Shown: positions 15,249-63,158, numbered from the stretch's first letter. The stretch is DNA of 64,000 bases from Candidatus Omnitrophota bacterium (GCA_903944345.1 CAJARJ010000013.1:58672-122671), one strand, 5' to 3'. Notes: generated by a model from the sequence alone, not told the origin. Numbers and translations are program-made.

Positions 15249-15969
15249 TTCCGGAAACGCTATCGCCATTCATAATCTGTGCAAATCCTACAAAACACTC
15301 GAAGCCCTGAAAAATGTCACCTTCACTGTAAAACGGGGCGACTTCTTCGGGTTCCTCGGGCCTAATGGCGCCGGAAAAACCACCACGATCAATGTGATCA
15401 CCGGACTCTCGAATTATAATTCCGGAGAAGTCCGTATCTTCGGGCACGATGTGACCCGGGACTATCGCCAGGCCCGCCAGCTGATCGGCCTGTGCACCCA
15501 GGAATTCAACTTCGACCCTTTCCTGAGCATTTTCCAGATGCTGGTTTACCAGGCAGGCTACTTTGGCATTCCTGCCAATGAAGCCGGACAGAAAGCCCGT
15601 GAACTGCTCAAGCGTTTCAGCCTGCTGGACAAACAGCACGAAAAATACCGCGCTTTGTCCGGAGGAATGAAAAAACGCCTCCTGCTCTGCCGTGCGCTTA
15701 TTCACGATCCGGAAATCCTGATCCTGGACGAACCTACTTCCGGCTGTGACCTGGAACTGAAATTTCTTATCTGGGATCAGCTGGCCTTGCTTAACAAGGA
15801 GGGCAAAACCATTTTTCTGACCACTCACTATATGGAAGAAGCCGAGAAACTCAGCAAAACCATCGGGATCATCAATCACGGACACATCGTCAAAATGGGA
15901 GCCAAGGAAGATATCCTGCGCGACAAATCCCTGCAGGACGTTTTTCTTGAAGTAACGGGGATAGAATAA
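15241..15969 (+). CDS. ABC transporter ATP-binding protein
   Basis: Walker A (GPNGAGKTT), signature (LSGGMKKRL), Walker B (ILILDEP); AGGAGA ribosome-binding site; the ATG overlaps the dus stop (ATGCGTGA). Confidence 0.85.
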   Translation: MRDSGNAIAIHNLCKSYKTLEALKNVTFTVKRGDFFGFLGPNGAGKTTTINVITGLSNYNSGEVRIFGHDVTRDYRQARQLIGLCTQEFNFDPFLSIFQMLVYQAGYFGIPANEAGQKARELLKRFSLLDKQHEKYRALSGGMKKRLLLCRALIHDPEILILDEPTSGCDLELKFLIWDQLALLNKEGKTIFLTTHYMEEAEKLSKTIGIINHGHIVKMGAKEDILRDKSLQDVFLEVTGIE

Positions 15970-16751
15970 TGATCCTTCAGCTTATCACCAATCCGATAGG
16001 GGTTTCCTCCCTCGCCAAACGGGAAATCCTGCGTTTTCTCAAGGTTTATATCCAGACCCTCCTGCCGCCCTGGATCAATTCAGCTTTGTTCATGTATATC
16101 TTTGGCATTGCCATTGGCGGACAGCTCAATTTTACCGTACCGGGAATAACCTACCTGGAATTTATCGTGCCGGGACTTGTGACCATGCACATGATCTCCG
16201 GAGCCTACGAGAACACGGCTTCATCTTTGTTCATTGGCCGCTGGCATAACAATATCCAGGAAGTCCTGCTTTCTCCACTCTCTTATCTGGAGATGGTGCT
16301 GGGCCTTTTGGCGGGTGGCGTAGCACGGGGACTTCTGGTGGGATCGGGTATTTTGTTAATTGCTTTTACTTTTACCGGAAGCGGAATCCGGCATCCGCTG
16401 CTGTTGCTGTTTTTCATGCTCATGATTACCGTTATCTTCTCCTGCGCAGGTATGCTGGCCGCGCTCTGGGCCGACGATTTTGACCGGCTGAACCTCTGGA
16501 ACATTTATGTGATCCTGCCCATGGTTCTTCTGGGCGGCGTCTTTCATCCGCTCAATCTTTTGCCGGACATTTTGCAGACATTCTCGCGCTTTAACCCGAT
16601 TTACTACCTGATGAGCGCAGTCCGGTATTCAGTGACAGGAACCGCCGAAACCAATATATGGCTATGTGCTGCCATGGCCTTTCTGCTGGCAAGCCTGTTT
16701 GGACTTGTAACTGTCATCCTTTTCAAAATCGGTTACAAACTGCGCACCTGA
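15969..16751 (+). CDS. ABC-2 family transporter permease
   Basis: 260 aa with six predicted transmembrane segments; start overlaps the ATPase stop (TAATG), indicating translational coupling. Confidence 0.8.
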   Translation: MILQLITNPIGVSSLAKREILRFLKVYIQTLLPPWINSALFMYIFGIAIGGQLNFTVPGITYLEFIVPGLVTMHMISGAYENTASSLFIGRWHNNIQEVLLSPLSYLEMVLGLLAGGVARGLLVGSGILLIAFTFTGSGIRHPLLLLFFMLMITVIFSCAGMLAALWADDFDRLNLWNIYVILPMVLLGGVFHPLNLLPDILQTFSRFNPIYYLMSAVRYSVTGTAETNIWLCAAMAFLLASLFGLVTVILFKIGYKLRT

Positions 16752-48787: not shown

Positions 48788-50977
48788 ATGTTCAAACGTT
48801 TGTGTGCAATCCTACTAATCGTGTCCGTTCTTGTCACTTCCACAATTCCCTCGGCGGCTTTGGCCCAGATGTCGTCTTTACCCGTCCCCGGATCCATGCT
48901 GGGGAAAACCCCGGATTTCTCTCCTCTGATAATGCAGGGAGTTCGCGTCCATCCCGATAATGCTCTCCTGTTTGATTTTATTATCGATTCCGGAGACTCA
49001 GGACTCGCCACTGACAGTGCCGCTTTCAGACAGGAAGCCGGAAAACTCGTCAATTATTTTCTGGCGTCGCTCACTATAAAAGAAGAAGACCTTTGGGTTA
49101 ACCTTTCCCCGTTTGAACACAACCGCATCCTCTCCCCCGATCTGGAAAAAACAGAACTGGGCAGTGACATGCTGGCACAAGACTACATCCTGAAACAATT
49201 AAGCGCTTCACTGATCTATCCGGAAGAAAATCTGGGAGAAACGTTCTGGAACCGGGTCTACGCCCGTGCCCGGGAAGAATTCGGCACCACAAACATACCG
49301 GTCGACACCTTCCACAAAATATGGATCAAGGCAGACAAGGTCCGGGTTATCGAACACGAGGGGGCCGCCTATGTGGCCGGAGCACACCTGAAAGTCATGC
49401 TGGAACAGGACTATCTGGCCATAAGCCGCACACCTTCCGACGGCGAAGGCAGCGATATTGCCCGTGATATCCTGCGCGAAGTCATTGTTCCTGAAATAGA
49501 AAAAGAAGTCAACCGGGGCACCCATTTTGCCCCGCTCAGGCAGATGTTCAATTCCATGATCCTTGCCACATGGTACAAGCTGGCACTCAAAGACGCCCTG
49601 CTCAACCGGATTTACAGCGACCGCGGAAAAACCGGCGGCGTACTGGCAGACGATCCGGCAGAAGCAGAGAAAATCTATGAACGCTATCTGGAAGCTTACA
49701 AAAAAGGCGTTTTCAACTATATCAAGGAAACCCCCGGAGCGAATGAGGAACCTACTTTGCCAAGAAAATATTTCTCGGGTGGAGTGGACGGGAACCTGGC
49801 TAAAATACTGGAACGTGTGGATGCCGCTGCTGCTCCGACAGAACTGACAGCTCCTGGCAACAGTCGCCGCTCCGCCGTTACGGTGCGGCTGGAAACAGTT
49901 GCCCAACCGGTCGAAGACTCCGTTCCTGCAAAAGAAACCCAACAACGCATAGAAAACTTCCTGGCGGGACACTCCGAAACGGCAACAGATGCGTCCATGC
50001 TGTCTGATTTAAACGAACTGATCAAAACTATCCGCGAACTTCCGGTCGACATGTTCGAAAAACGTTTCGAGGAACTCTCCCTGTTGACCAGTAAAAAACA
50101 GTTGCGCGTCCTGCGTGATTTGTTCGACAAAATAAGAGGCCTGGACGAGCCTGGCGTTGAGCATCTGATCTCCCGGATAAAAGCCCTGGGTCTCAGGCAG
50201 GCCGAAATGGATGAACTGGTTGAAAATCTCGAAAAAACTGTCTGGATGCGAAAAGAAGCTTCCGGCCCGGCTGTCTCCACCGATCGTTACATCACCCTTC
50301 TGAAAAAAAAGATTGCCCTGAGCCTGTCATTTATAGTTCTGGGATTTATATCCGGGAGCTTTGCCGTTATCGACATGCTAGACAACAGAACAGAATGGAC
50401 TTCTCTGCTGGCCATTTTTGCCTCGTACATTTTTTTTATACTGGCCAGGCATCTGGACAAATATATTAAAAGCATGAACGAGCAACCGGCCAAACGTACG
50501 CTGGGCCAGAACGATCTTGTGAATCTGGCGGAACAGTTTCTTGTCCTTTATCAGAATGGCGAAGCGATACCGGGTGCAACCGAAGAGCTCGCGCGGGACG
50601 CCGTCAATTACGAAATCTATTTCTGGCTGCTGCACGAAAGATACATTGCGCCCGATGATCTGCCTGCTGCTGTTCGTGGTGTCAGCCAACAGCTGTCGCT
50701 AACACCATTAAAAGGCCCTGGCAGTTACTGGAGCATTACCGTCAATCACCCTGACCCTCTGGACAGTAACACCGACCAGTCCCAGGCCGCCAAGGGTGGT
50801 ATCGACCTGAATGCCAAAACCATGAGCCTGGATATTTCCAGAACAGCGGCAAGCGCCGCGATCAGAATGGATCAATCTGCCTTCGACGGGTTTGAGGACA
50901 ACCTGTTTTCGGGACTGCAGGGGATTATTATCAGGATCGTTCCGGTTGAAAACCCGGCCGTATTTCTGGGCGTCTGA
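48788..50977 (+). CDS. Family paralog P3 (729 aa): signal peptide, conserved N-domain, two hydrophobic segments, C-terminal GGIDLN module
   Basis: ..GVRVHPDNALLFDF..WVNLSPFEHNRILSPDL..LAQDYILKQ..FGTTNIPVDTFHKIWIKADK..LKVMLEQD..REVIVPEIEKEVN..NSMILATWYK..PRKYFSGG..; ends ..AAKGGIDLNAKT..IVPVENPAVFLGV. Confidence 0.8.
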   Translation: MFKRLCAILLIVSVLVTSTIPSAALAQMSSLPVPGSMLGKTPDFSPLIMQGVRVHPDNALLFDFIIDSGDSGLATDSAAFRQEAGKLVNYFLASLTIKEEDLWVNLSPFEHNRILSPDLEKTELGSDMLAQDYILKQLSASLIYPEENLGETFWNRVYARAREEFGTTNIPVDTFHKIWIKADKVRVIEHEGAAYVAGAHLKVMLEQDYLAISRTPSDGEGSDIARDILREVIVPEIEKEVNRGTHFAPLRQMFNSMILATWYKLALKDALLNRIYSDRGKTGGVLADDPAEAEKIYERYLEAYKKGVFNYIKETPGANEEPTLPRKYFSGGVDGNLAKILERVDAAAAPTELTAPGNSRRSAVTVRLETVAQPVEDSVPAKETQQRIENFLAGHSETATDASMLSDLNELIKTIRELPVDMFEKRFEELSLLTSKKQLRVLRDLFDKIRGLDEPGVEHLISRIKALGLRQAEMDELVENLEKTVWMRKEASGPAVSTDRYITLLKKKIALSLSFIVLGFISGSFAVIDMLDNRTEWTSLLAIFASYIFFILARHLDKYIKSMNEQPAKRTLGQNDLVNLAEQFLVLYQNGEAIPGATEELARDAVNYEIYFWLLHERYIAPDDLPAAVRGVSQQLSLTPLKGPGSYWSITVNHPDPLDSNTDQSQAAKGGIDLNAKTMSLDISRTAASAAIRMDQSAFDGFEDNLFSGLQGIIIRIVPVENPAVFLGV

Positions 50978-52832: not shown

Positions 52833-52936
52833 ATAAAGCCCTGCTGATTAAGAAGATTGACTGCCAAAATGATTCTTAAGTATACCAGAAACATTTTAAT
52901 TCATTTTTAATTAGTGTTTTTAATTCGTGTTAATTC

Positions 52937-52954
52937 GTGACACACACAATTGTT
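52937..52954. repeat. IR-element left arm GTGACACACACAATTGTT, preceded by two TAATTCGTG sub-repeats
   Basis: Perfect reverse complement of 54093..54110; the same family as the other eight copies below. Confidence 0.7.
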
Positions 52955-53043
52955 TTGTCACATTTTATACATTAATAGCACATTTAGTATCATATTTTGT
53001 CTAAGATATGATGACAAACAAAAAATGATCTTATATCAAAAAA

Positions 53044-54006
53044 TCAGTGCCTTCCTAATTTAATGAACCCGGAGATAATTTTTGCCACCGTATCTGTTCC
53101 CTGCGGAGCACGCAAGTCCCCGGCCAGGACATGATTTTCGGAATGATCAAAACTCCGGACGGCAACAAGCTTTTTATCATCCCGCGGAATACGCTTAAAC
53201 GCTCTGCTAGCCGGTCCGGGATCAACCAAACGATCCTCAGGCGAATAAATAACCAGCAGAGGGCGATGTATCTTTTCCCAGGCGGCTTGGCGCGCAAAAG
53301 CCGCCAAAAGCCCCGGCGTAACCAACGCCCCGGAGGGATACTGTGTCGTCCAATAGCGATTGATAAGAGGATTGTCGGAAACTCGGGAATACTGCGGCCC
53401 AACCACCAGCCTGGCGATCTGAGCGCCCCACGGCCCGGATAAAAGACCCGATAAAGGATGCCTGAACCCCAGCGCCGGAGAAAGAAGAACATACGCCAGC
53501 ACATCGTCGTTACCCTCAAGCGTTGCCAGCCAGGCTGCCAGCGCCCCGCCCGAGGAGTTACCAATAACAATTACTTTTTCGCCAATTCTACGGCCGACAG
53601 CCAGAGCCTCAAGTGTGTCCTGCAAGAAATCTTCCACCCGGGCAGACGCCAGGCTCTCCCCACCAAGACCATGTCCCCTCAGACGTGTGTAAAACACGTT
53701 GGCTCCCCATTCTTCAGCCAGACGCTCGCATAAAGGAAAAGTATCCTGACGTGAAGACGAAAAACCGTGCAGATAAACTATAGAAACCGACGTTTTCTCC
53801 CCGGGTGCAGCGGCCCAGGAAACAGATTTTTCAGTTCCCGGAATCACAGCCGGATACGAAGCCTCACGATGCAATAAATAAGTCACAATATCTTGCTCAG
53901 GCAAAAAATCAATTGCAACCGATCTAAAATGCACCCGCGCCCGAGGCCCGGCCAAAAATAAAACAACCAACGCACAAAGAAAGAAAACTATTTTAGAGAC
54001 ACCCAT
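53044..54006 (-). CDS. Secreted alpha/beta-hydrolase (esterase/lipase-like)
   Basis: Signal peptide; HGFSSS; nucleophile elbow GNSSGG (GxSxG); C-terminal Asp/His region; bracketed by the perfect 18-bp inverted repeat. Confidence 0.75.
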   Translation of the reverse strand: MGVSKIVFFLCALVVLFLAGPRARVHFRSVAIDFLPEQDIVTYLLHREASYPAVIPGTEKSVSWAAAPGEKTSVSIVYLHGFSSSRQDTFPLCERLAEEWGANVFYTRLRGHGLGGESLASARVEDFLQDTLEALAVGRRIGEKVIVIGNSSGGALAAWLATLEGNDDVLAYVLLSPALGFRHPLSGLLSGPWGAQIARLVVGPQYSRVSDNPLINRYWTTQYPSGALVTPGLLAAFARQAAWEKIHRPLLVIYSPEDRLVDPGPASRAFKRIPRDDKKLVAVRSFDHSENHVLAGDLRAPQGTDTVAKIISGFIKLGRH

Positions 54007-54092
54007 AATTGTTTTTTTATATCGCTGGCCACATTAGTAATTTAATTCACTAAACAACTAGATATGTTGAATAATGTTAATAAATGCTTGAA

Positions 54093-54110
54093 AACAATTG
54101 TGTGTGTCAC
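54093..54110. repeat. IR-element right arm AACAATTGTGTGTGTCAC
   Basis: Perfect inverted partner of 52937..52954, 87 bp upstream of the hydrolase ATG. Confidence 0.7.
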
Positions 54111-54113
54111 CGA

Positions 54114-55142
54114 TTAAACTATCCGGGCGCGAAGGTCGTGGAAAACTTCGTCCAGAGAACCGGCATGAGCTGAGCGGATTTCCTGGAGCTGACGCGCAAC
54201 CTCGTTACGCAGACGCGGGGAACGCAGGTCATCCAGCTTCTGGCACAAGCCAAGCCGCCGAGCGAGCGTAAAATAAATACGCTCTTCTTCGGGAAGTTCA
54301 AGGTAGCGATCCATCAATCCCAAAAGTGCAGGCTTGTCCTGAGGAAACTGTCCCCTGGCTTCCAGCAAAAGATCAACAGCATGATGGTTGGCGTAATGAC
54401 TGGTAATGCCTTCCAGTGCCGCAATCAGCATTTTTTGTTCTTCAATAATATTCTTTTCTGTCTGCAGGGTAAATTCCCCGGCCTGCATCTGGCGAAACAA
54501 ACCTGAACCAGGTTTAACACCGATAGTAAGAACCCGGATAAAATCCGGATTGATTTCATTCAACACCCTGGCTGTTTCACGAGCGTGCTCCTGCCACAAT
54601 TCCTGCCCGCCGAGCCCCAGGATAATAAATTCCGAAACCGACATTCCCGCCTCTTTGGCCCTGCGTCCGGAAACAGCAATATCAGTGGCCGTAGCCCCTT
54701 TGTTGACCTTCTTGAGTACCGTATCCGACCCCGACTCCATTCCGCAGTAGAGCTTGTTGAGTCCGGCACGGCACATATCCTGCATTTCTTCCGGTGACTT
54801 GCGGATCATGGTCTGGGCTCGACCGTAACTGCTGATGCGTTTCAGCTGCGGGAACCTCTGCCGCAAAAAGCCGAGCAATTCCAGAAGATCGGCGGTTTTC
54901 ATCAAAAAACTGTCGCCATCCTGAAGAAAACATGTTTCAAAAGCGTGCCCCCGGTAATATTCTGCCGCGGCATCAATATCGCCTTTTATTTCGTCGAGCG
55001 TCCGCAGGGAAAACTTCATGTCCCTGTAGTTGACGCAAAACTCGCACTTGTTCCAAGGGCAGCCGCGCGTAGTACGCACAAGCAGACTTTCAGCCTCGTC
55101 TACCGGACGAATAGGCCCCAGTTCAAACGGCGGATTATTCAT
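54114..55142 (-). CDS. Radical SAM domain protein (unusual Cx4Cx2C cluster motif), coupled to paralog P4
   Basis: ..TTRGCPWNKCEFC.. near the N-terminus; 342 aa; the ATG lies 2 nt after the P4 stop codon (TAA-AT-ATG). Confidence 0.7.
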   Translation of the reverse strand: MNNPPFELGPIRPVDEAESLLVRTTRGCPWNKCEFCVNYRDMKFSLRTLDEIKGDIDAAAEYYRGHAFETCFLQDGDSFLMKTADLLELLGFLRQRFPQLKRISSYGRAQTMIRKSPEEMQDMCRAGLNKLYCGMESGSDTVLKKVNKGATATDIAVSGRRAKEAGMSVSEFIILGLGGQELWQEHARETARVLNEINPDFIRVLTIGVKPGSGLFRQMQAGEFTLQTEKNIIEEQKMLIAALEGITSHYANHHAVDLLLEARGQFPQDKPALLGLMDRYLELPEEERIYFTLARRLGLCQKLDDLRSPRLRNEVARQLQEIRSAHAGSLDEVFHDLRARIV

Positions 55143-55144
55143 AT

Positions 55145-58100
55145 TTAAAACCTCACAAAATCCGTTAGCGCGGCCTGCGCGGTAACACCAACAATAACCG
55201 GAACAATCCCCGTTGCATGCTGACGCAGCTGCTGCATGGTTTCTTCACTCAGCTCAAAGACTGAAGCCGATGCCAGATCATACCCCGATCCAGCCGCTCT
55301 TTCAATCAGAAGCCTGATATTATCCGGATTAAGATCGATACCACCCGGAGTTAATGCTGACTGGGCGTGATCGGCTCCTACAACAACCTGTCGCGCCCGG
55401 GCAAGCGCCTCATTATTGTTCCTGTACCCTCTGAGATACTCCTTGAACTCAGGCGGCATACTGTTGCTGTTGGCTGACTGCTTGAAATCGGCGATCGGCC
55501 CGGCGGCAACAACAACCAGACGACGGCGGCCATAGGCGCGCTCAAGAACAGCCCGTAAAGCCGGATGATCAGAAATTTCATCGGAATGCCCTGAAAAAAA
55601 ACTGTCCAGACGCGCACCAAAGGCTTCCGCAGTCCCGTCATCCTGAAAAACCCACAAATCTTTCTCCCTGAGCTTGACCATAAGCCCGTCAGTCACAAGC
55701 CGGTTCAATATTCCGGTCCCTTCATAGCCCAACTCGTTAAGGGTGGCCGAGGACACCATCCCCGAAAGCACAACATAAACACTTATCGACTGCCCCTTGC
55801 TCTGAAGGCGTTCAATGTGCGGCAAGCCATTCTGGTTGGAATCAATCTTGCCTTCCAGAAAATCATTGATCAACCCCTCAATCACGCGCCGCTCGCGCGG
55901 TTGCTGCAAATAGTCACCATTCACCCATCCTCCGTCGACAACCGCGACATCATATCCTTTGATCCGCAAAGGCTGCTCCTGTTTTAAATACCGCTCGGGC
56001 GTAACACCCCAGAGCTTCCAGTAACCCTGCAGAACACTTTGCTCAATCTGCATCTGCCTGCTCATATGCGGTAGAAGTTTGTCGTACCCTTCCCGTGCAA
56101 GCCGACCATTCTTGACTATGGTTCGTGTTTCGGAGAGAGCATTAAAATAAGCTTCGCCATTGCCCTCGCTATCCAGAAAACGCCGCACAGACTCCGGCGG
56201 AGCTTGCGCCGAACGGGCCAACGTACTGACCACATCAGCATAATTCCCCTCGTACTGCAATCCGGAAGCAAGAATACCGTCAAGTCCCTCGGAGATGAGA
56301 ACCCCTTCCTCAATGGCAGCAGACTCCTCGTCCTGCCAGGGAATTTCGACGAAAGCCAGAAAACGCGAACCCATGCTACCCTCGGGCCGCCAACGATCAA
56401 TATCCTCAAAGGTCAGACCCTGCGCTTTGGAGGCAAGAAATACCCGTTCTGGCGTTACATTGACTCCACTCCGGGCAAGACTGATAACCGCGTCCAGCAG
56501 ACGTGTATCCTCGGGCTCCAGCTGCAGAATCTCTGCCTCGCCCAGAATAAAAGCCAGCTTGTCTGCAGGCGGTTCCCCGTTAGAAAACCCCGAAGATTCC
56601 CGCAAAAACCTGGTGACCCAGGTATTCATCCACAATCCAAAGCGCTCTCTGAGTGCCGCTTGCAATATTTTACGATCAACCTGTGCATCGGTAATATCTG
56701 TAAAAGCCAAATCATTCTTGTACTGACGCACCACCTTGCGCAAAACATCTTTAAGGCTGGTACCTGGACGGGCATGCTTTATCATGACCTCGTAATGACG
56801 AATCATGCGCTCAATCAACGGGCGCTGCAAAGGAGACGGGGCTACCGGGCGAGAAACCTCTATGGTTTTCTTGATCTTCTCGGTCCTGGCATAGGACTGC
56901 AGAAACAAATCCACATTATAGTACCCGGCTTCAAACAAAAGATCCGCAACCCGTCTTTCCACATCCACAAATTGCTTCTTATGCCGCGGCTGGGGAATAT
57001 CCTGCTCCCGGATATTGGCCAAAACCTGTAACAAGTCTTGCCACCGTGAACTTCTGATAATATCCGAGAGTTCCTCCTCAAGCTGTCCTCTTCTGAAAGG
57101 ATTCGGAATCCAGGAATCTTCTCCCAGGTCTTCGATAAATATAAGATCTTTCAACGGGAGCGGTTCAGCAACAAATGCGGCGAACAAACGCAGAAACAAC
57201 AGGCCCCTGCGGGCTTCCTGAATAATCTGCTGATTTTTTGATCTCCCGCCTTCGGCCAGAATCTCGAGCAATTTATTACCGACTGCAGCCGTCTTATCCT
57301 GCGCGCCAAACGCCTCCTGGAACTTTAAGAGCAGTCCGGAAGAAAGATCCTCTTTCCTGAAAACTTTCAGCATTTTCTCCAACCCCAGCCACTCTTCCAT
57401 ATTGACTTTAGAAAATAAATGCCCCATTCTCATAACAAGTGCCTGACGGAATTCCACAACATCCAGATCCTTGAGAAATTCGACTACCAGCCCGGCGAAT
57501 TCAAAAGACTTTCCCTTTACAATCGCGTTTTCAATCTTTTCAAGCTGCGGACGCAACTTCTTGATCTGCCCCTTGTGCTTGGGAAGAAATATGGCCGAGT
57601 CCCGTGTAAAGTCTGCAACATTATAATGAAGCCCCCCTTGCATCTTGATCCCCTGCGCGGCGTCGGTCTGAACCTGCAGATCAGAAGAGACCCTGTAATA
57701 ATCCCGCGTGTCCGCAGGAAGGTCCAAATCCATCGCGGCGTCGCCATTGAGAATCACTCCGCCGGACATATATTTGCGGGGGATAGTGTCGCCATTCCAG
57801 GGGTCAGTTTCTTCCCGAATCAGGTTAAAAACACCCTGCCTGAAACTGTCCATATAAGCTGTCCAGACCGTTTCGGCAGAAACCCTCCCGAAGCTGTCCA
57901 TCCCCTGCGTTTTACGGCTGTCAGAGTACACCCGCGCCACAACAGAATCATACAGCTTTTTCTTGTACCACGTGGCCAATACCAGACAGCGATAAATCTC
58001 TCTCACCCTGGCAAAACGCGGGCTTTCATTAACCTCGCGCTCAAGAGCGGGTATAACCACTTCGCGCATGGCACGTAAAGCCGCGGTACGCGCCGGATTG

Positions 58101-58900
58101 TTATATCCCGGACCAATTTCAGCCGAAAACTGCGGATAAGCCGCCGAAGCCCTGTAATCGTCCTCAAGCAAAACCTTCAGACGAGTTTCCGTCACAACTG
58201 CAGCAGCACCCGGCGCGGCGACGTCCCGGGAAAAGTTTTCAAAAATACGCGCGCTGTCAGAAGTTATCCAGACCTTGTTGAAGGTATCAACCGGCAAATC
58301 GGTTGTGCCAAACTTTTCGTGCAAATCAGCATAGACACCGGCCCAAAAAGCTTTCCCCTGGCTGTCGTCAGGATGAACCAACTCGGCGGCCACGCGCTTG
58401 AGCAAATAATCCATAACCAGCAAGTCCTGCCCCATGCCTGTTCGCGCGAGGTCCGGGGTCGTCACCCGGTCTTTTTCATAGGGGGAAAGATTGATCCACA
58501 AATCCTGGGGAGGAATAACCAGCGAAGAAAGAAAGTACCTGATCTGACGAAGGGAGTCCTGGCTGTTATCAATCTCGGAACTCCCCCAGGCAGCATTGCG
58601 CTCGAAAATGAAATCCATCCGTAAAGGATTGCGGGGGTCAACCCTGACACCCTTCATGATCACGCCGGAGGGGGCTGTAATATCTTCAAGCAGAGGATCG
58701 CCGGGCAACGCAAGTGGAAGAACAGATTGTGCGCTAACAGGAACTACGGAGCCCAAAAAAAGGATGGCGCACAAAAATAACCGGAAGAAAATTCCGAAAG
58801 GTGAAAGCATCTGGCCAGAACAATTTAGAAGTGACATGGTTTTTGACAAATCCGGGTTAAAACTACAGGAAAGTATAATATATTTTAAGCTTTCCTGCAC
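55145..58900 (-). CDS. Family paralog P4 (about 1,230-1,251 aa): signal peptide, conserved N-domain, long unique central region, C-terminal GGIDLN module
   Basis: ..GVRVDPRNPLRMDF..WINLSPYEKDRVTTPDL..LLVMDYLLKR..FGTTDLPVDTFNKVWITSD..LKVLLEDD..REVVIPALEREVN..LVLATWYK..PRKYMSGG..; ends ..LTPGGIDLNPDN..IVPVIVGV... The track ORF starts at a GTG at 58900; ATGs at 58837 and 58810 are alternatives (the signal peptide follows 58810). Confidence 0.8.
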   Translation of the reverse strand: MQESLKYIILSCSFNPDLSKTMSLLNCSGQMLSPFGIFFRLFLCAILFLGSVVPVSAQSVLPLALPGDPLLEDITAPSGVIMKGVRVDPRNPLRMDFIFERNAAWGSSEIDNSQDSLRQIRYFLSSLVIPPQDLWINLSPYEKDRVTTPDLARTGMGQDLLVMDYLLKRVAAELVHPDDSQGKAFWAGVYADLHEKFGTTDLPVDTFNKVWITSDSARIFENFSRDVAAPGAAAVVTETRLKVLLEDDYRASAAYPQFSAEIGPGYNNPARTAALRAMREVVIPALEREVNESPRFARVREIYRCLVLATWYKKKLYDSVVARVYSDSRKTQGMDSFGRVSAETVWTAYMDSFRQGVFNLIREETDPWNGDTIPRKYMSGGVILNGDAAMDLDLPADTRDYYRVSSDLQVQTDAAQGIKMQGGLHYNVADFTRDSAIFLPKHKGQIKKLRPQLEKIENAIVKGKSFEFAGLVVEFLKDLDVVEFRQALVMRMGHLFSKVNMEEWLGLEKMLKVFRKEDLSSGLLLKFQEAFGAQDKTAAVGNKLLEILAEGGRSKNQQIIQEARRGLLFLRLFAAFVAEPLPLKDLIFIEDLGEDSWIPNPFRRGQLEEELSDIIRSSRWQDLLQVLANIREQDIPQPRHKKQFVDVERRVADLLFEAGYYNVDLFLQSYARTEKIKKTIEVSRPVAPSPLQRPLIERMIRHYEVMIKHARPGTSLKDVLRKVVRQYKNDLAFTDITDAQVDRKILQAALRERFGLWMNTWVTRFLRESSGFSNGEPPADKLAFILGEAEILQLEPEDTRLLDAVISLARSGVNVTPERVFLASKAQGLTFEDIDRWRPEGSMGSRFLAFVEIPWQDEESAAIEEGVLISEGLDGILASGLQYEGNYADVVSTLARSAQAPPESVRRFLDSEGNGEAYFNALSETRTIVKNGRLAREGYDKLLPHMSRQMQIEQSVLQGYWKLWGVTPERYLKQEQPLRIKGYDVAVVDGGWVNGDYLQQPRERRVIEGLINDFLEGKIDSNQNGLPHIERLQSKGQSISVYVVLSGMVSSATLNELGYEGTGILNRLVTDGLMVKLREKDLWVFQDDGTAEAFGARLDSFFSGHSDEISDHPALRAVLERAYGRRRLVVVAAGPIADFKQSANSNSMPPEFKEYLRGYRNNNEALARARQVVVGADHAQSALTPGGIDLNPDNIRLLIERAAGSGYDLASASVFELSEETMQQLRQHATGIVPVIVGVTAQAALTDFVRF

Positions 58901-58919
58901 ATTATCCGGATCAGATCGA

Positions 58920-59549
58920 CTAACTTGCGGTAGCCGTGATCGTCAAAACACCTTCATAGACTCCGGCAACATCACTCAGGGTAAAGGGGACGGCACCCGC
59001 CGGGTCGGTAGCATCTCCACTCGCCAGCTGCAAATGAACAATCAGCGCTGTGCTACTACCCATCTCTTCAGGCGTAACCTGTTCGTTTATAACATCTTTT
59101 AACAGTTTTCTGGGGCCATGATCGGGCAGATCAACTGTAATACTCTGATTACCTCTATAAACAAATCGCTTAAACCAGGCCACAGTGTGCCACCCTAACC
59201 CCTTGCCGGTTTGTCCGTTAGGATTTCTACTTTCCGCATAAGTGAGCGTGGCATTTATACTCCCTACCCAACCGATAGGAGTGATGGAAATAACGAACGT
59301 GTTGGGTGACTTATAAATATTCTGAGCAGAATCAAACTGCAGGGCGCCAAAATCAAGGGAACCACTCTCGGGTAAAACGTCCACATTCTCGCCGCGGGCA
59401 GCGGAAACCATGATCCCTGCTTGAGAAGGAACATAAGCTCCCAGATTAAAAGACTGCTCATCCGCCTGCAAAATTCCGCAAGTCAAAAGAACAAAAAAGA
59501 AAATTAACCGGGCAATTAATTGGTGACACACAGAATTGTTTTCTAACAT
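58920..59549 (-). CDS. Hypothetical small secreted protein (209 aa), first gene of the P4 operon
   Basis: ATG at 59549; signal peptide LIARLIFFFVLLTCGILQA; the first 9 codons are encoded by the IR element (MLENNSVCHQ is the reverse complement of ..TGGTGACACACAGAATTGTTTTCTAACAT). Confidence 0.5.
   Translation of the reverse strand: MLENNSVCHQLIARLIFFFVLLTCGILQADEQSFNLGAYVPSQAGIMVSAARGENVDVLPESGSLDFGALQFDSAQNIYKSPNTFVISITPIGWVGSINATLTYAESRNPNGQTGKGLGWHTVAWFKRFVYRGNQSITVDLPDHGPRKLLKDVINEQVTPEEMGSSTALIVHLQLASGDATDPAGAVPFTLSDVAGVYEGVLTITATAS
59523..59540. repeat. IR-element left arm GTGACACACAGAATTGTT (preceded by AATTAATTGGTGA)
   Basis: Left end of a MITE-like unit of about 116 bp, 59523..59638. 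Confidence 0.7.
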
Positions 59550-59620
59550 TCTTTACACAAGTTATACAACATACAGTTTTCAATTATTACATTGTAATAA
59601 AACGCAATTAAATGTCAAAG

Positions 59621-59638
59621 AATAATTCTGTGTGTCAC
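59621..59638. repeat. IR-element right arm AATAATTCTGTGTGTCAC
   Basis: Inverted partner, one mismatch; the internal sequence begins TTCTAACATTCTTTACA and ends ATGTCAAAG, like the 62189..62305 copy. Confidence 0.7.
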
Positions 59639-59695
59639 TAATTATTGCTAATTATTCTTTTTAATATAACAATAGAATGTGATAAAATGTTAAAT

Positions 59696-59713
59696 AATAA
59701 TTCTGTGTGTCAC
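59696..59713. repeat. Second right-arm copy AATAATTCTGTGTGTCAC(CAATTAA), 85 bp upstream of the P5 ATG
   Basis: Solo arm, or a tandem arrangement with 59621. Confidence 0.65.
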
Positions 59714-59797
59714 CAATTAACACAACTGCCCGCTGGGGCAAGGAGAATAAAGATTCGCTTTACAACTCAAGACTGATTAACAAAAGGAGAAACAGGC

Positions 59798-62167
59798 ATG
59801 CGCTATGTATTATCCAGTCAATCCGATCAGTTGAGGACAAGAAAGCCCGGCACACACATCATCAACGCGGTCATGACCGCCATATTCCTCTTTCAAAGCT
59901 GTGTTGCACCCAACGTATGGGCGCAGTCCCTTCAGATGCCATCATCAGTCCCCTCTACAAAACCAGCGTATATCCCCGCGAGCCTGCAAGGTCTGGTTCT
60001 TGATTACAAAGAACCCTTTAAACTCAATTTTCTCGTTAGCCCCGGGCAATCCCCTCTTTCTCCTGTCGAAAAGAAAGAAGAATACGCCCGCCTCGTAAGA
60101 TATTTCTTGGCCGCCCTTGCCATCCCCGACAACGACCAGTGGGTCAACCTTTCACCTTTTGAAAAAGAACGCATTATTTCCGGGAACTTCGGCCGCACGG
60201 AAATGGGCCGCGACCTGCTGCGGCAGGACTATCAACTCAAACAATTATCCTCCAGCCTCACTCATCCCGACTCTGCAACAGGGAAAATATTCTGGGAACA
60301 TCTGTATGCCGAATTTTTGCGCACATTCGGAACAACCCAAATCCCCGCCGAGGCCTTGAACAAGGTGTGGATCATGCCGGACAAGGCCGTAATCCATGAA
60401 AACAGCCGAACCCGTTCGGTACACATTCTGGAACAACGATTAAAAATTGTCAGCGATGTGGATCATGCCGCGCTTCGCGGAGGACAACCGGACAGATCTC
60501 CTCTTGAGGATATTTACCAGGATGCCCTGCGCAAAACCATCCTGCCACTAATCGAAAAAGAAATTAATGAAAGCCGCGACTTCGCCATGCTCCGGCAGAT
60601 TTACAGCAGCATGTTACTGGCCGCATGGTTCAAGCGGGCCCTCAAGGATTCGGTCCTCACCAATCTTTACGGCGACAAATCGAAAACCACAGGCATCGAT
60701 ACAAATCCGCTTGTCAACCAGGCCATCTACCGTGATTACGTTGACATGTTCCGCAAGGGAGTCTTTGATTTCATCCGGGACGATCTGGACACAGCAACAG
60801 GAGACATCCTCCCCCGCAGGTACTTCTCGGGCGGGGCTGTTTCTGTCGGATCAGCTTTCGAGGATACAGTGACGGTCCTGACCGATCAGTCGCAAAGAAT
60901 TGCAGATCCCAACGAGGAACTGGTTACAGCAAGCCTGGTCTCTCCCCAACAAATCCCCCGACGCCTGGCCCCAACAGATATCCCCGTCGTTCTAATACTG
61001 CTGTCTCTCTGGCAGGGACATACCAATGCCCCCAATAAACAGGTTGTAATTCCTTTCTCGCCGATATACGCACAGTTCTTGCCTGAACAAAACGCTATCC
61101 CGGGGACACGTCTTCTGGACGACTCCCCGGCAGCAGGTCTTGAAATTGTTGATCGTCACGATTTGATCTCCTGGCTCGTTGGCCTGAAGAATTTCAAACG
61201 GGCCAAGAAACTGGCCCAGATAGCCTTGCGCCAAAGACATGAACTCTTGGCCCTGGCTCTTTCCTTACCTCTCTCTGAAACATTGTCAGACGACCAACAA
61301 ACCCGTGTCCTGACGTTTTCAGTCAATCACCGGGATTACACCGTCGAGATCATCAGTCACAACAAACCTTTCACATATAATGGTACTGATTACGATCCGC
61401 TGCCCGGAAGCATGATAAAAATCACAAAAGACAGAGGGCATGAAATTCTCCTGGAAATCCTGAAGGGCGAAACAACACCCGCGCAATGGAAGACAGACGT
61501 TGTTCCTTTCCTGCTGGCCCGGGTTTTTCCAGGAATTGAAGTTTCCGGATTCGATCAACCCGCCGAAACATTCGAATTGGCAGCGTCCAAGGACGACATG
61601 ACCAGCGACGACAATACTCCTTCCTTAAACGTAACTGCAAATACACTGGAACAAATTTTTTCTTTACCAGCGTCGAAAACAGAACTCGTTTCAAGAAAAG
61701 ATGCCCTGGAACTGGCTTTTATGGTGGAAACACCGGAGGGCAAAGCTCTCCTGACGGCCCTGCCTCTTTACGCCCCTGAAGATAAAGACCGCACATTTGT
61801 CGTCGGTTTACAGGTCACTGTCTCCACACTCACAGAAACCGGGCTTCACGAAATACTTTTTGCCAATACACACGATCTTTCCCTTATCAGCCGTCTGAAC
61901 AGAGAAAATCCGTCGTGGCGTAATTTTGCTGTTTTCGCAAGCGCGCTGGTTGCCGGCAATCCCGACACAAACAGCAGTCCTGGCAGCCTCGCAGCCGCCG
62001 CTCCTGGTGGTGTTGACTTCAGCGAAGCAGCACTGGATTTGTTGATCAAACGAGATGGCAGCGGGATTCCTCTGCCTGTGGGTCAGCAAAACCTGACGAA
62101 TATAAGAATCAACGGACTGGTGCCGGTCATTATGAACATCCGTCCGGCAGTCGAAATTAATTGGTAA
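59798..62167 (+). CDS. Family paralog P5 (789 aa): conserved N-domain, unique central region, C-terminal GGVDF module
   Basis: ..WVNLSPFEKERIISGNF..LLRQDYQLKQ..FGTTQIPAEALNKVWIMPDKAVI..KTILPLIEKEIN..SSMLLAAWFK..PRRYFSGG..; ends ..AAPGGVDFSEAALDLLIKRDGSGIPLPV..VPVIMNIRPAVEINW; ATG with a GGAG ribosome-binding site. Confidence 0.8.
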   Translation: MRYVLSSQSDQLRTRKPGTHIINAVMTAIFLFQSCVAPNVWAQSLQMPSSVPSTKPAYIPASLQGLVLDYKEPFKLNFLVSPGQSPLSPVEKKEEYARLVRYFLAALAIPDNDQWVNLSPFEKERIISGNFGRTEMGRDLLRQDYQLKQLSSSLTHPDSATGKIFWEHLYAEFLRTFGTTQIPAEALNKVWIMPDKAVIHENSRTRSVHILEQRLKIVSDVDHAALRGGQPDRSPLEDIYQDALRKTILPLIEKEINESRDFAMLRQIYSSMLLAAWFKRALKDSVLTNLYGDKSKTTGIDTNPLVNQAIYRDYVDMFRKGVFDFIRDDLDTATGDILPRRYFSGGAVSVGSAFEDTVTVLTDQSQRIADPNEELVTASLVSPQQIPRRLAPTDIPVVLILLSLWQGHTNAPNKQVVIPFSPIYAQFLPEQNAIPGTRLLDDSPAAGLEIVDRHDLISWLVGLKNFKRAKKLAQIALRQRHELLALALSLPLSETLSDDQQTRVLTFSVNHRDYTVEIISHNKPFTYNGTDYDPLPGSMIKITKDRGHEILLEILKGETTPAQWKTDVVPFLLARVFPGIEVSGFDQPAETFELAASKDDMTSDDNTPSLNVTANTLEQIFSLPASKTELVSRKDALELAFMVETPEGKALLTALPLYAPEDKDRTFVVGLQVTVSTLTETGLHEILFANTHDLSLISRLNRENPSWRNFAVFASALVAGNPDTNSSPGSLAAAAPGGVDFSEAALDLLIKRDGSGIPLPVGQQNLTNIRINGLVPVIMNIRPAVEINW

Positions 62168-62192
62168 TTAATTGGTGATAATTAATTGGTGA
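62155..62192. repeat. Three tandem AATTAATTGGT(A/G) sub-repeats overlapping the P5 stop codon and leading into the IR arm
   Basis: gaAATTAATTGGTAATTAATTGGTGATAATTAATTGGTGAcac; the last P5 codons (EINW*) are read from the first repeat. Confidence 0.55.
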
Positions 62193-62206
62193 CACACAGA
62201 ATTGTT
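62189..62206. repeat. IR-element left arm GTGACACACAGAATTGTT
   Basis: Left end of a MITE-like unit of about 117 bp, 62189..62305. Confidence 0.7.
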
Positions 62207-62287
62207 TCTTAACATTCTTTACATCTATTTTACGCTTTTTCAGGATCTAGTTTTGACTACGCAAAAGAATGTCAATAGATGTCAGAA

Positions 62288-62305
62288 AACAATTCTGTGT
62301 GTCAC
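62288..62305. repeat. IR-element right arm AACAATTCTGTGTGTCAC (followed by a CGAATTATCT x2 direct repeat)
   Basis: Perfect reverse complement of the left arm; internal subterminal sequences match the 59523..59638 copy. Confidence 0.7.
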
Positions 62306-62319
62306 GAATTATCTACGAA

Positions 62320-62868
62320 TTATCTGATTTCAAAAATATCCACACACGCGTTAATCTCGCTTGCAGAGAATGGTGGCCGCGTATTGCTTCTGATCTCATT
62401 AAGAACAATCTTTCTTTGATCAATACTCAGAGGAGCCGAATTCAGGAAATCCCATGAAGATTCCGTCTTGCCATACAAATACACGGCACAAATAAGACCT
62501 TTGTCAGCATTCGCAAGGTTAAGGACTCTCAGTTTTCCGATATCCGAGAGAATTTCCCCCATCCTGACCCCATCCCCATTTTTGACTCCCAGACGAATAA
62601 CTTTCAATTCAAACGCAGCCAGAATATTCCTACTGGTATTAGAATCTTTAATAATAATATCTGCCACAACATTCGCAAGAGAATCAGACTCCACAAGAAC
62701 TGTCTTCGACGGAAATCTCTCTTGTAACCACCCCGCCAATCCAAGCTGGATATAGTTCTCGAAACCGACAGAACCCTGTTTCATACAAAGGATAACACCG
62801 GAGGTTTTCATCAATTCGACCACTTTTTTTTCTATCTGCTTTTTCAACTCTTCCGTTAGAAACTGCAT
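62320..62868 (-). CDS. Hypothetical protein with a possible PD-(D/E)xK nuclease-like motif
   Basis: 183 aa from the ATG at 62868 (MQFLTEEL..); ..VESDSLANVVADIIIKD..AAFELKV.. (D ... ExK spacing). The track ORF starts at a GTG inside the IR arm at 62913. Local GC looks lower than its neighbours. Confidence 0.4.
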   Translation of the reverse strand: MQFLTEELKKQIEKKVVELMKTSGVILCMKQGSVGFENYIQLGLAGWLQERFPSKTVLVESDSLANVVADIIIKDSNTSRNILAAFELKVIRLGVKNGDGVRMGEILSDIGKLRVLNLANADKGLICAVYLYGKTESSWDFLNSAPLSIDQRKIVLNEIRSNTRPPFSASEINACVDIFEIR

Positions 62869-62869
62869 A

Positions 62870-62878
62870 CCCCCCCCC
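62870..62878. promoter_or_regulatory. C9 homopolymer (G9 on the coding strand) 1 nt upstream of the ATG of the 62320..62868 gene, within its ribosome-binding-site window
   Basis: Plus strand gcatACCCCCCCCCtc; coding strand GAGGGGGGGGGT-ATG; a candidate slipped-strand phase-variation tract. Confidence 0.5.
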
Positions 62879-62906
62879 TCTTTAAAAATTAATTGGCGAT
62901 TAATTG

Positions 62907-62924
62907 GTGACACACAGAATTATT
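62907..62924. repeat. IR-element left arm GTGACACACAGAATTATT (preceded by AATTAATTGGCG and ATTAATTGGTGA sub-repeats)
   Basis: Left end of a unit of about 252 bp, 62907..63158. Confidence 0.7.
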
Positions 62925-63140
62925 AGCCAGCGATAAGCCCCTGCATAAGCCATCAAGGCATCACTAAAGGCCAGCTTGCTATTGAAGCGACTGAGCACAA
63001 CTGCGTTGAATACTTTAACATCATTCTCAGGCAAAAAAAAAGAACAAAAAAAATATCCTCAATCACATCATAAAAACGCAAAGGTTTCCAACGCGGCATT
63101 GTCAGGAAGCGGACAAGGGCAATGACAAAATATGTCAAGA

Positions 63141-63158
63141 AACAATTCTGTGTGTCAC
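63141..63158. repeat. IR-element right arm AACAATTCTGTGTGTCAC overlapping the umuC stop codon
   Basis: The umuC TGA (63155-63157, minus strand) is the TGA inside GTGACAC of this arm; preceded by ATGTCAAGA as in other copies. Confidence 0.7.

What the first reader, a model, noticed from the sequence alone, without database searches (positions are those of the whole stretch)
52937..63158. MITE-like inverted-repeat elements in every intergenic spacer of a 10-kb segment; one pair brackets a hydrolase gene and one overlaps the umuC stop
Nine copies of an 18-bp arm were found, GTGACACACAGAATTGTT or its reverse complement, arranged as inverted pairs at 59523/59638, 62189/62305 and 62907/63158. Arms extend with AATTAATTGGTGA direct sub-repeats, up to three tandem copies. 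The 116-bp and 117-bp units share subterminal sequence (TTCTAACATTCTTTACA ... ATGTCA[AG]A), so these are copies of one mobile or repetitive element, not chance palindromes. A fourth, perfectly matching pair (GTGACACACACAATTGTT / AACAATTGTGTGTGTCAC) lies 1,174 bp apart and encloses the alpha/beta-hydrolase gene. The elements sit at coding boundaries. The first nine codons of the 58920..59549 gene are read from an arm. The last four codons and stop of P5 are read from the sub-repeats. The umuC TGA lies inside an arm. They may be MITEs (perhaps mobilised in trans), or cis sites for a DNA-binding protein regulating the paralog genes.
Basis: seen in the sequence. Interest (0 to 1): 0.7.

Follow-up and report, generated by a model that had tools for sequence, protein, structure and literature searches.

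The report
Hairpin repeat family at gene boundaries
A previously undescribed family of short hairpin-forming DNA repeats sits at almost every gene boundary of a 15-kb toxin-antitoxin island in an uncultured Omnitrophota bacterium and recurs in another Omnitrophota population; it looks like a small mobile element, but what moves it is unknown.

Summary
Nine copies of the 18-mer (0 expected) plus one degenerate copy lie in window 52937-63158. The array continues 5.3 kb past the window: 18 good arms over 15.3 kb.

Each arm is about 38 nt. Arms form co-oriented units of 59, 116-117 and 252 bp, plus solo arms. Arms are 35-36/36 identical between units, whereas unit interiors are only 60-78% identical.

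- R-type arms abut stop codons: eight minus-strand genes stop 0-33 nt away.
- L-type arms lie 0-120 nt upstream of the next gene.
- I found no target-site duplications, no Rfam family, and no integrase or transposase in about 75 kb.
- The integron attC consensus and a dif-like layout are not met.

The host is Candidatus Omnitrophota. The array is identical in more than 10 assemblies. A profile of arm-encoded peptides found the same arms in other Omnitrophota metagenomes: one 116-bp unit fused to a truncated HEPN gene beside a defence operon, and a solo arm supplying the stop codon of a core gene.

Best reading (0.5): a new non-autonomous, hairpin-forming repeat family resembling REPINs or MITEs, mobilised in trans and piled up in a variable island. 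Main rival (0.2): cassette-boundary recombination sites. Genome-wide copy number and the enzyme remain unknown.

The parts
52893..52936 (+). Outer tandem sub-repeats of arm L1 (TTAATTCA.. / TTAATTAGTG / TTAATTCGTG x2, period 10-13). The last copy runs into the arm and ends at GTG|ACAC.
   Evidence: (family D4)
52937..52954 (+). Arm L1 (variant GTGACACACACAATTGTT, L-type flanks). It is the leftmost arm of the array, 104 nt upstream of the Polysacc_synt_2 gene start (52832).
53996..54013 (+). Degenerate arm L' (GAGACACCCATAATTGTT, 15/18 matches). It overlaps the ATG of the alpha/beta-hydrolase gene. With R1 it forms a decayed 115-bp unit.
54093..54110 (-). Arm R1 (same G-to-C variant as L1). The TAA stop of the radical-SAM gene (54114-54116) lies 3 nt from it, inside its outer flank TTTAATCG.
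59516..59645 (+). Unit E2 (116-bp core 59523-59638 plus TAATTG / TAATTA flanks). Arm L2 supplies codons 1-12 of the 209-aa ORF. The interior carries a TTGACA-16-TACAAT promoter-like site (59618 down to 59591, minus strand) that points at that ORF.
59696..59713 (-). Solo arm L2' (L-type flanks, reversed orientation), 84 nt upstream of the plus-strand 789-aa gene.
62155..62188 (+). Three tandem outer sub-repeats (AATTAATTGGT / AATTAATTGGTGAT / AATTAATTG-). The first encodes the last codons and the TAA stop of the 789-aa ORF.
62189..62305 (+). Unit E3 (117 bp) between the convergent 789-aa and 182-aa genes. As single-stranded DNA it folds into a long hairpin (-29.8 kcal/mol, z = -7.8).
62306..62327 (-). 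Outer sub-repeats of R3 (AGATAATTCGT x2). They contain the TAA stop of the 182-aa ORF.
62887..62906 (+). Outer sub-repeats of L4 (ATTAATTGGCG / ATTAATTG-), between arm L4 and the ribosome-binding site of the 182-aa ORF.
62907..63158 (+). Unit E4 (252 bp). Arms L4 and R4 enclose 216 bp of unrelated, partly GC-richer DNA. The umuC stop TGA (63155-63157) lies inside R4.

Best explanation
**What it is.** This is a lineage-specific family of non-coding, hairpin-forming (foldback) repeat elements in Candidatus Omnitrophota.

**Anatomy (shown).**
- One unit has two inverted ends around a variable core of 23 or about 80 nt, giving 59-bp and 116-117-bp units. Longer versions hold foreign DNA.
- The shared end is about 25 nt, TAAT[TC]G-GTGACACACAGAATTGTT.
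- The two ends differ beyond that. The L end continues T[CA]TTAACATTCTTTACA. The R end continues TTCTGACAT-N4-TGACAT and has an (A)ATAAT[CT]G outer flank.
- Solo ends are decayed or recombined units.

**How it spreads (inferred).**
- A trans-acting enzyme encoded elsewhere recognises the conserved ends and moves the units. This would explain why ends stay 97-100% identical while cores drift to 60-78%.
- There are no target duplications. Every unit, at three loci in two populations, has the same polarity relative to gene and GC-skew direction.
- These two features favour a strand-specific, hairpin or single-strand or site-specific mechanism (REPIN/RAYT-like or IS200/IS605-like) over cut-and-paste DDE transposition.

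**Consequences in place (shown).**
- Copies abut the 3' ends of genes and supply stop codons in two of three frames.
- They supply two start codons and one near-consensus promoter.
- They would put a 25-bp stem at the 3' end of each transcript.

**Local rearrangement (inferred).** The palindromes drive rearrangement around themselves. Signs are 10-14-bp tandem duplications that always end at GTG|ACAC, solo arms, a truncated HEPN gene, and abutment to ORFs. That would explain their pile-up in a TA/umuDC-rich insertion that splits a polysaccharide locus.
For: **Real, stable repeat.** Nine copies against 0 expected. 18 arms over 15.3 kb on the same contig. The array is identical in more than 10 independent assemblies.

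**Conserved ends, drifting cores.** Arms are 35-36/36 identical against 50-64/82-83 for interiors (Fisher p = 1e-3 to 1e-5). The same holds for the copy from other samples.

**Structure.** Distinct L and R ends; 7 of 7 units in the island share one orientation. Units fold as hairpins with z = -5.5 to -10.9.

**Dispersal.**
- A peptide-profile search found P0242.
- Its contigs L101-L104 carry a 116-bp unit with 36/36 arm identity between a HEPN gene cut after 27 codons and an ABC-3C/Mrr-type defence operon. It has the same polarity, two different right-hand flanks between samples, and contigs that end at or just past it.
- L113 carries a solo R-type arm whose GGTGA gives the stop of a 593-aa thioredoxin-like core gene, ending ...DYNW*.
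- That organism is also Omnitrophota.

**Absence in relatives.** No arms in a sister species (86% aa identity for the flanking gene) or in a 66% relative, where Bac_transf, DegT and Polysacc_synt_2 are contiguous. No arms around close HigA homologues.

**Stop-codon abutment.** Distances to the 18-mer are 3, 14, -4, -1, 3, 33, 10 and 27 nt for R arms, and 21 nt for the 789-aa gene at an L arm.

**Other.** A promoter-like site lies inside unit E2. REPINs show the same pattern of conserved inverted ends, spacers variable in length and sequence, and decaying singlets (PMC3337134, read).
Against: - No enzyme gene was found: no transposase, RAYT or recombinase Pfam hit in about 75 kb around the array.
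- No empty or filled site and no excision product was seen. Locus 1 is invariant across samples apart from SNPs.
- Copies cluster extremely in this genome. 10 of 11 spacers of 100 bp or more in the island carry arms, against 0 of about 10 in the other 53 kb.
- Exact 18-mer scans of 185,579 species genomes, JGI metagenomes and IMG/VR gave only chance singletons. Genome-wide abundance is therefore unproven.
- Individual arms are not self-palindromic and lack the GTAG/CGTC tag of REPs.
- There is no compensatory covariation in the hairpin. The arms never vary, so this says nothing either way.
Confidence: 0.5

Rival explanations
1. The arms are recombination sites at cassette boundaries, analogous to an integron or to dif modules. 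Each unit would be the recombination site at the 3' end of a gene cassette. An unlinked, possibly host-encoded, recombinase would capture, excise and reorder TA, defence and other modules at these sites.
For: - All units share one polarity, with one unit or arm after almost every gene block.
- ORFs end in or next to the site, and 20-120 nt of 5' leader precede the next ORF, as in integron cassettes.
- Size classes are 59 and about 117 bp, with conserved ends and variable centres.
- Two TA modules (ParE/Phd and HigA/HigB') lie between directly repeated R arms 680 and 702 bp apart.
- Cargo is typical of chromosomal cassette arrays: four TA pairs, umuDC and, at locus 2, a defence operon.
- Locus 2 has different flanks between samples, and assemblies break there.
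- Arms mostly alternate in orientation, as pdif sites do (PMC13141974 abstract).
Against: - The attC consensus is not met. GTT and AAC sit at the loop end in the wrong order, and the arms pair perfectly with no unpaired spacer or extrahelical bases.
- A single arm has no internal dyad of the XerC-spacer-XerD kind.
- No IntI or other recombinase was found in about 75 kb.
- Junctions are not uniform. The D3 repeat is fused to an inner arm edge at R6 but to an outer arm edge at L9. A HEPN gene is cut mid-ORF. A solo arm sits between two core genes.
- The 789-aa and 1221-aa 'cassette' genes are paralogues of flanking chromosomal genes.
- Module order is identical in more than 10 samples.
Confidence: 0.2
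2. The repeat is a host-maintained functional site rather than a mobile element. It would act as a binding site for a DNA-binding protein (regulator or nucleoid protein), or as an RNA 3'-end hairpin that insulates or stabilises each transcript of the island.
For: - Arms are much more conserved than interiors.
- They lie at the 3' end of nearly every transcription unit, with one polarity relative to transcription.
- The predicted hairpins are strong.
- One unit carries a near-consensus promoter.
- REP elements of enterobacteria have such roles (my own knowledge).
Against: - No T-run follows the stem, so it is not a canonical intrinsic terminator (one search lists none at the units).
- The promoter is seen in only one unit.
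- The flanked genes are functionally unrelated.
- The copy fused to a truncated HEPN gene, the solo and decayed arms, and the absence of arms in sister taxa fit insertion and decay better than a conserved regulon.
- There is no covariation evidence.
Confidence: 0.15
3. The inverted pairs are invertible segments (phase-variation switches or a shufflon), flipped by a site-specific invertase.
For: Inverted repeats flank short segments next to surface-polysaccharide genes. Unit E2 holds a promoter between divergent genes.
Against: - Every assembly shows the same orientation of every segment, including the hydrolase.
- Cores of 23 bp are too short to invert as duplex DNA.
- Unit E3 lies between convergent genes.
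- No invertase gene is nearby.
Confidence: 0.03

Closest known systems
REPINs / REP-BIME elements mobilised by RAYT (IS200-like Y1) transposases
   Same: - Two conserved inverted ends around a spacer that varies in length and sequence.
- Long hairpin in single strands.
- Decaying singlets.
- No target duplication.
- Extragenic position, often just after stop codons.
- Species-specific sequence (PMC3337134).
   Different: - Each arm here is not itself an imperfect palindrome and has no GTAG or CGTC tag.
- No RAYT gene has been seen.
- Copies pile up in one island instead of lying in hundreds across the 53 kb of flanking chromosome.
- All units have strictly one polarity.
Bacterial MITEs such as Correia elements (Neisseria) and ERIC/IRU
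   Same: - Units of 59-117 bp with perfect terminal inverted repeats.
- Length variants through internal deletion or insertion.
- Insertion at gene ends.
- Donation of promoters and of start and stop codons.
- Hairpins when co-transcribed (my own knowledge for the named families).
   Different: - No TA or other target-site duplication could be found.
- The two ends are distinguishable and always in the same orientation.
- Outer tandem sub-repeats are present.
- No parent insertion sequence is known.
Integron cassette arrays / CALINs (attC sites)
   Same: - One imperfect-palindrome site of about 60 or about 120 bp after each gene.
- Uniform orientation.
- Stop codons inside the site.
- TA cassettes are abundant.
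- The array is inserted in a chromosome.
   Different: - There is no RYYYAAC...GTTRRRY signature.
- The stem has no unpaired spacer or bulged bases.
- There is no intI, attI or Pc.
- Some modules hold multi-gene operons and paralogues of core genes.
dif modules bounded by pdif (XerC/XerD) sites in Acinetobacter plasmids
   Same: Gene modules, often TA pairs, are separated by short conserved sites that alternate in orientation. The recombinase is encoded elsewhere (PMC13141974).
   Different: - The location is chromosomal and the phylum is different.
- The sites lack the 11-6-11 dyad layout.
- Two sites sit 23-81 bp apart between modules.
- No rearranged configurations were seen in this array.

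Membership tests
MITE (non-autonomous DDE-transposon derivative) | Terminal inverted repeats on a short non-coding element | tested here: met
   18-nt cores are perfect or 1-mismatch inverted repeats, extended to about 25 nt by TAATTG flanks.
MITE (non-autonomous DDE-transposon derivative) | Direct target-site duplication flanking each copy | tested here: not met
   The best direct repeats between left and right flanks are 4-7 nt AT-rich strings at inconsistent offsets. The flanks are inverted, not direct. Only a palindromic AATT cannot be excluded.
MITE (non-autonomous DDE-transposon derivative) | Parent insertion sequence or transposase with the same ends | not testable with these tools
   None in the window or its 10-kb extensions. 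The rest of the genome cannot be reached.
MITE (non-autonomous DDE-transposon derivative) | Many dispersed copies in either orientation | tested here: inconclusive
   18 arms lie in one 15.3-kb island and none in the other 53 kb. Three further sites occur in other Omnitrophota assemblies. The orientation is uniform, not random.
REP / REPIN-RAYT | Inverted doublet of conserved repeats with a variable spacer, forming a hairpin | tested here: met
   Defining description from PMC3337134.
REP / REPIN-RAYT | Each REP is a 20-40-nt imperfect palindrome tagged by GTAG or CGTC | tested here: not met
   An arm has only an ACA(G)AATTGT mini-palindrome and no such tag. The tag definition comes from the abstract of PMC3733652.
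REP / REPIN-RAYT | A RAYT gene flanked by the repeats | not testable with these tools
   No Y1 transposase domain is listed in about 75 kb of gene lists. The whole genome is not available.
Integron / CALIN attC array | R'' RYYYAAC and R' GTTRRRY boxes at the base of the stem, an unpaired central spacer, and extrahelical bases | tested here: not met
   On both strands the unit reads ...AATTGTT-loop-AACAATT..., so GTT comes before AAC and lies next to the loop. The arms pair without bulges. The consensus is from my own knowledge. The IntegronFinder model was not available.
Integron / CALIN attC array | intI with attI and Pc at one end of the array | tested here: not met
   The array is flanked by Polysacc_synt_2 on one side and by a 344-aa unknown gene plus Bac_transf on the other. 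No Phage_integrase hit appears in the gene lists.
Integron / CALIN attC array | One site at the 3' end of each cassette, all in one orientation | tested here: met
dif modules (pdif sites) | 28-bp site made of 11-bp XerC and XerD arms with partial dyad symmetry around a 6-bp spacer | tested here: not met
   Within one arm the repeated motifs (AATTG, TGACA) are direct, not inverted.
dif modules (pdif sites) | Different module configurations between related replicons | tested here: inconclusive
   Locus 1 is identical in more than 10 samples. Locus 2 shows two right-hand flanks. The start of L095 joins L5-type and L8-type sequence.
Invertible promoter / shufflon | Both orientations present in a population | tested here: not met
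   All assemblies are collinear with the window at 99.99-100% identity. Reads were not available.
Known RNA families (Rfam 15) | Match at the gathering score | tested here: not met
   Only sub-threshold hits to eukaryotic miRNA hairpins (23-36 bits against thresholds of 70-95).

The most novel reading that the evidence does not exclude
The units are the recombination sites of a gene-cassette system unrelated to integrons. A hairpin-forming site with two distinguishable ends would follow each module. An unlinked, still unknown recombinase or HUH-type enzyme would use these sites to capture and exchange TA, defence and repair modules in Omnitrophota chromosomes. The tandem 10-14-bp duplications that always end at GTG|ACAC would mark its cleavage position.
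Probability: 0.2. Interest if true: 0.85.

Novelty: new variant of a known kind. Interest (0 to 1): 0.45.

Why it matters
- No small repeat or mobile element has been described, to my knowledge, for Omnitrophota, an uncultured phylum.
- If this family is mobile, its strict polarity and its lack of target duplications point to a single-strand or site-specific mechanism whose enzyme is still to be found.
- The conserved 25-nt end is a ready probe for finding that enzyme, and for tracking strain-level variation in TA and defence islands in metagenomes.
- The array also matters for annotation. Several annotated ORFs take their start or stop codons from the repeat, and MAG assemblies tend to break at it.
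- If the cassette reading proves right, this would be a second, independent solution to gene-cassette capture alongside integrons.

Tried and rejected
**Public-collection searches**
- Exact 18-mer scans of GTDB species genomes, JGI metagenomes and IMG/VR gave only singletons with no extended similarity, that is, chance matches.
- blastn of a unit against plasmids and phages found nothing.
- A synthetic six-frame peptide query in the word-indexed protein search gave no hit. The profile search then worked.

**Family tests that failed**
- Rfam gave nothing.
- tRNA or tmRNA origin of the D3/D5 repeat: none found.
- LexA box, sigma-54, sigma-28, hix/gix, CRP and Fur-box resemblances were checked by eye and rejected as non-matching.
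- Integron attC and dif layouts failed by inspection.

**Searches for a mover or for relatives**
- No recombinase or transposase was found in any neighbourhood reached.
- The unknown proteins (182, 209, 333/344, 729, 789 and 1221 aa) gave nothing in Pfam, NCBIfam, PADLOC or PHROGs. The 182-aa protein also gave nothing in PDB.
- The AF2 model of the 182-aa ORF was unusable (pLDDT 39).
- Contexts of the closest HigA homologues in other Omnitrophota contain no comparable palindromes.

**Structure and extension**
- Covariation analysis was uninformative because the arms are invariant.
- I tried to extend locus 2 rightwards through the HEPN'-arm fusion ORF.


Full report
**1.

- The 18-mer GTGACACACA[GC]AATT[GA]TT occurs nine times at the stated coordinates. 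None is expected by chance, and there are none in the other 52.9 kb of the window.
- A relaxed search adds a tenth, degenerate copy at 53996-54013, over the hydrolase start codon.
- Repeat finding shows that the conserved block is longer than 18 nt. Aligning all copies from the outside inwards gives about 38 nt: TAAT[TC]G-GTGACACACAGAATTGTT-TT(C)T(G/A)ACAT.
- The tandem outer sub-repeats, the shared subterminal sequence and the coding overlaps are all as described.

**2. The array is larger than the window shows**

- Looking up the 789-aa protein returned the same locus from several metagenome assemblies, including a 318-kb contig.
- Locus L001 (window coordinate = L001 + 49797) is 100% identical to the window and extends 6.5 kb beyond it.
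- L001 carries 18 good arms over 15.3 kb:
  - units, each a plus arm followed by a minus arm, of 1174, 116, 117, 252, 117, 59 and 59 bp;
  - solo arms at L001 9899, 14913, 15593 and 16295.
- The same order and sequence recur in more than 10 assemblies from different samples and assemblers. Only a few SNPs and a 1-bp deletion in one loop differ. It is therefore not an assembly artefact, and it is stable in this population.

**3. Host and setting**

- Homologues of the flanking 614-aa Polysacc_synt_2 protein are named Candidatus Omnitrophota.
- To the left lie Wza/Wzc/Wzy-type polysaccharide export genes and housekeeping genes.
- To the right lie a 344-aa unknown gene, then Bac_transf, epimerases and glycosyltransferases.
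- In a relative with 66% identity, Bac_transf, DegT and Polysacc_synt_2 are contiguous. The island therefore splits a polysaccharide locus (inference).
- A sister species with 86% identity has a different upstream neighbour and no arms on its 3.1-kb contig.
- The island holds:
  - a hydrolase, a radical-SAM gene, and 1221-, 209-, 789- and 182-aa unknowns;
  - umuC with a truncated umuD;
  - ParE/Phd, HigA with a decayed HigB, a U32 peptidase, a RelB-like/ParE-like pair, and Gp49 (HigB-like)/HTH.
- The 789- and 1221-aa proteins are paralogues of the 674- and 729-aa proteins just outside the island. Part of the island is thus not obviously foreign.
- No integrase, transposase or Y1 domain appears anywhere in about 75 kb.

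**4. Anatomy**

- The two ends of a unit can be told apart.
  - L ends have a TTAATTG outer flank and a T[CA]TTAACATTCTTTACA inner sequence.
  - R ends have an (A)ATAAT[CT]G outer flank and a TTCTGACAT-N4-TGACAT inner sequence.
- All seven units in the island have L on the plus strand and R on the minus strand.
- Four solo arms are R-type in the same orientation. One, at window 59696, is L-type and reversed; it lies upstream of the only plus-strand gene.
- Between the three roughly 117-bp units, arms are 35-36/36 identical but interiors only 60-78% (Fisher p = 1.4e-3 to 1.3e-5). Something maintains the ends.
- Units fold as long hairpins (z = -5.5 to -10.9). The arms never vary, so covariation is uninformative.
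- No consistent direct repeats flank the units.
- The outer tandem duplications have periods of 10-14 nt and always end at GTG|ACAC.
- One such duplication, CTGAAAGGTG x2 at L001 18389-18408, is made of unrelated flank plus GGTG. These duplications therefore look like mechanistic footprints rather than protein-binding iterons (inference). I cannot explain them further.

**5. Relation to genes**

- Read in the direction of the minus-strand genes, each gene block is followed directly by an R end.
- The stop codon lies 3, 14, -4, -1, 3, 33, 10 and 27 nt from the 18-mer for, in order: the radical-SAM gene, the 182-aa ORF, umuC, ParE, HigA, U32, the RelB-like gene and the HTH gene. Most of that distance is the element's own flank.
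- The plus-strand 789-aa gene stops 21 nt from an L end.
- L ends lie upstream of the next start codon. Two overlap it and the other six lie 20 to 119 nt away.
- Four unrelated proteins end in (Y/I/N)N(W/R)*, read from the same frame of the flank.
- Unit E2 contains a TTGACA-16-TACAAT site aimed at the 209-aa gene. The other units have no comparable promoter, and no canonical terminators coincide with the units.

**6. Distribution in this genome**

- Ten of eleven spacers of 100 bp or more inside the island carry arms.
- None of about ten comparable spacers in the rest of the window do. This is my count from the gene lists (hypergeometric p about 3e-5).

**7. Distribution elsewhere**

- Exact scans of public genome, metagenome and viral collections returned only chance singletons.
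- A profile built from the open reading frame that crosses the arms (LIGDTQNCFLTFFT...) found a 46-aa ORF, P0242.
- Its contigs come from unrelated samples and carry a complete 116-bp unit with 36/36 arm identity and 62-66% interior identity.
  - The R end is fused to codon 27 of a HEPN gene that follows an MNT gene.
  - The L end faces an ABC-3C/Mrr-type defence operon.
  - Its polarity relative to genes and GC skew matches the window array.
  - Two different right-hand flanks occur in different samples.
  - Every contig stops in or within 250 bp of the unit.
- A 110-kb contig of the same organism has a solo R-type arm whose GGTGA supplies the stop of a 593-aa thioredoxin-like core gene. It also has a possible 14-nt remnant after another gene.
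- That organism is also Omnitrophota. Whether it is the same species as the window organism could not be determined.
- The family is therefore dispersed and not a purely local array.

**8. Interpretation**

- The combination fits a non-autonomous repeat family of the REPIN/MITE kind that is moved in trans. The features that fit are: conserved distinguishable ends, variable cores in discrete length classes, solo and decayed ends, a gene truncated at an end, flanks that differ between populations, absence in sister taxa, and presence at unrelated sites.
- REPINs share most of these properties (PMC3337134).
- Formal membership fails in each known class:
  - no target duplications and non-random orientation, against MITEs;
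  - arms that are not palindromic and carry no GTAG/CGTC tag, against REPs;
  - no attC signature and no intI, against integrons;
  - no 11-6-11 dyad, against dif sites.
- The strict polarity and the lack of duplications suggest a strand-specific or site-specific mechanism (inference).
- The pile-up in one TA-rich island, with units directly after ORFs and two TA modules between direct arms, keeps a cassette-site model alive at about 0.2.
- A purely regulatory or RNA-structural role is less likely (about 0.15). Invertons are unlikely.

**9. Verdict**

- This is a real, previously undescribed palindromic repeat family with unusual organisation.
- The decisive data are outside these tools: genome-wide copies, the enzyme, and read-level polymorphism.

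Noticed in passing
window 62870-62878 (minus strand G9): A run of nine G lies between the AGAGG ribosome-binding site and the ATG (62866-62868) of the 182-aa ORF. It could act as a slipped-strand translational switch. Its length is the same in all assemblies compared.
   Followed up: partly
L001 15548-15586, 16185-16256, 18353-18391, 19245-19324 (right of the window): A second repeat family (D3/D5, 39-75 nt) lies 60-110 nt upstream of each of the four TA operons. The one intact copy is the 3' end plus downstream hairpin of a 58-aa ORF. In three copies the rest of that ORF is replaced by an arm or a unit.
   Followed up: partly
window 46657-48681, 48788-50977, 55145-58810, 59798-62167: Four large proteins (674, 729, 1221 and 789 aa) share a roughly 350-aa N-terminal domain (36-44% identity). 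They have no hit in Pfam, NCBIfam or PADLOC. This looks like an Omnitrophota-specific paralogue family beside a polysaccharide locus.
   Followed up: partly
L001 14547-14786 and about 15930-16080: umuD is truncated to about 70-79 codons; only the start of the S24 domain remains. The HigB gene upstream of the 100-aa HigA is a pseudogene. The island is decaying.
   Followed up: partly
window 62320-62868 (minus strand): The 182-aa ORF, bounded by units E3 and E4, has a D...E-x-K-like motif (ADIIIKD...FELKV) that suggests a PD-(D/E)xK nuclease. No family or PDB match was found, and the single-sequence AF2 model had pLDDT 39.
   Followed up: partly
L095 1-40 (ERZ27313536 k141_721174); L001 18439: The contig starts with 10 nt of L5-type inner sequence joined to the flank of arm L8. 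This hints at a recombinant, or at a 117-bp allele at the site of the 59-bp unit E6. Separately, two samples carry a 1-bp deletion in the loop of unit E7.
   Followed up: no
L101/L102 versus L113/L114, next to the RlmL gene: In the second Omnitrophota population, the region beside RlmL is strain-variable. Some contigs have ATPase_2/DUF234, Mrr and an ABC-3C-like operon ending at the repeat unit. Others have two unrelated small genes.
   Followed up: partly
L102 1-85 (= end of L107): The contig end contains Illumina adapter sequence, a public-assembly artefact unrelated to the finding.
   Followed up: no
L025 852-869 and L052 2180-2197 (JGI metagenomes): An exact 18-mer is followed about 20 nt later by GCGTGTCAC...GAATTGTTT. 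This is a partial echo of the arm in unrelated contigs. It is probably chance or a distant relative.
   Followed up: no
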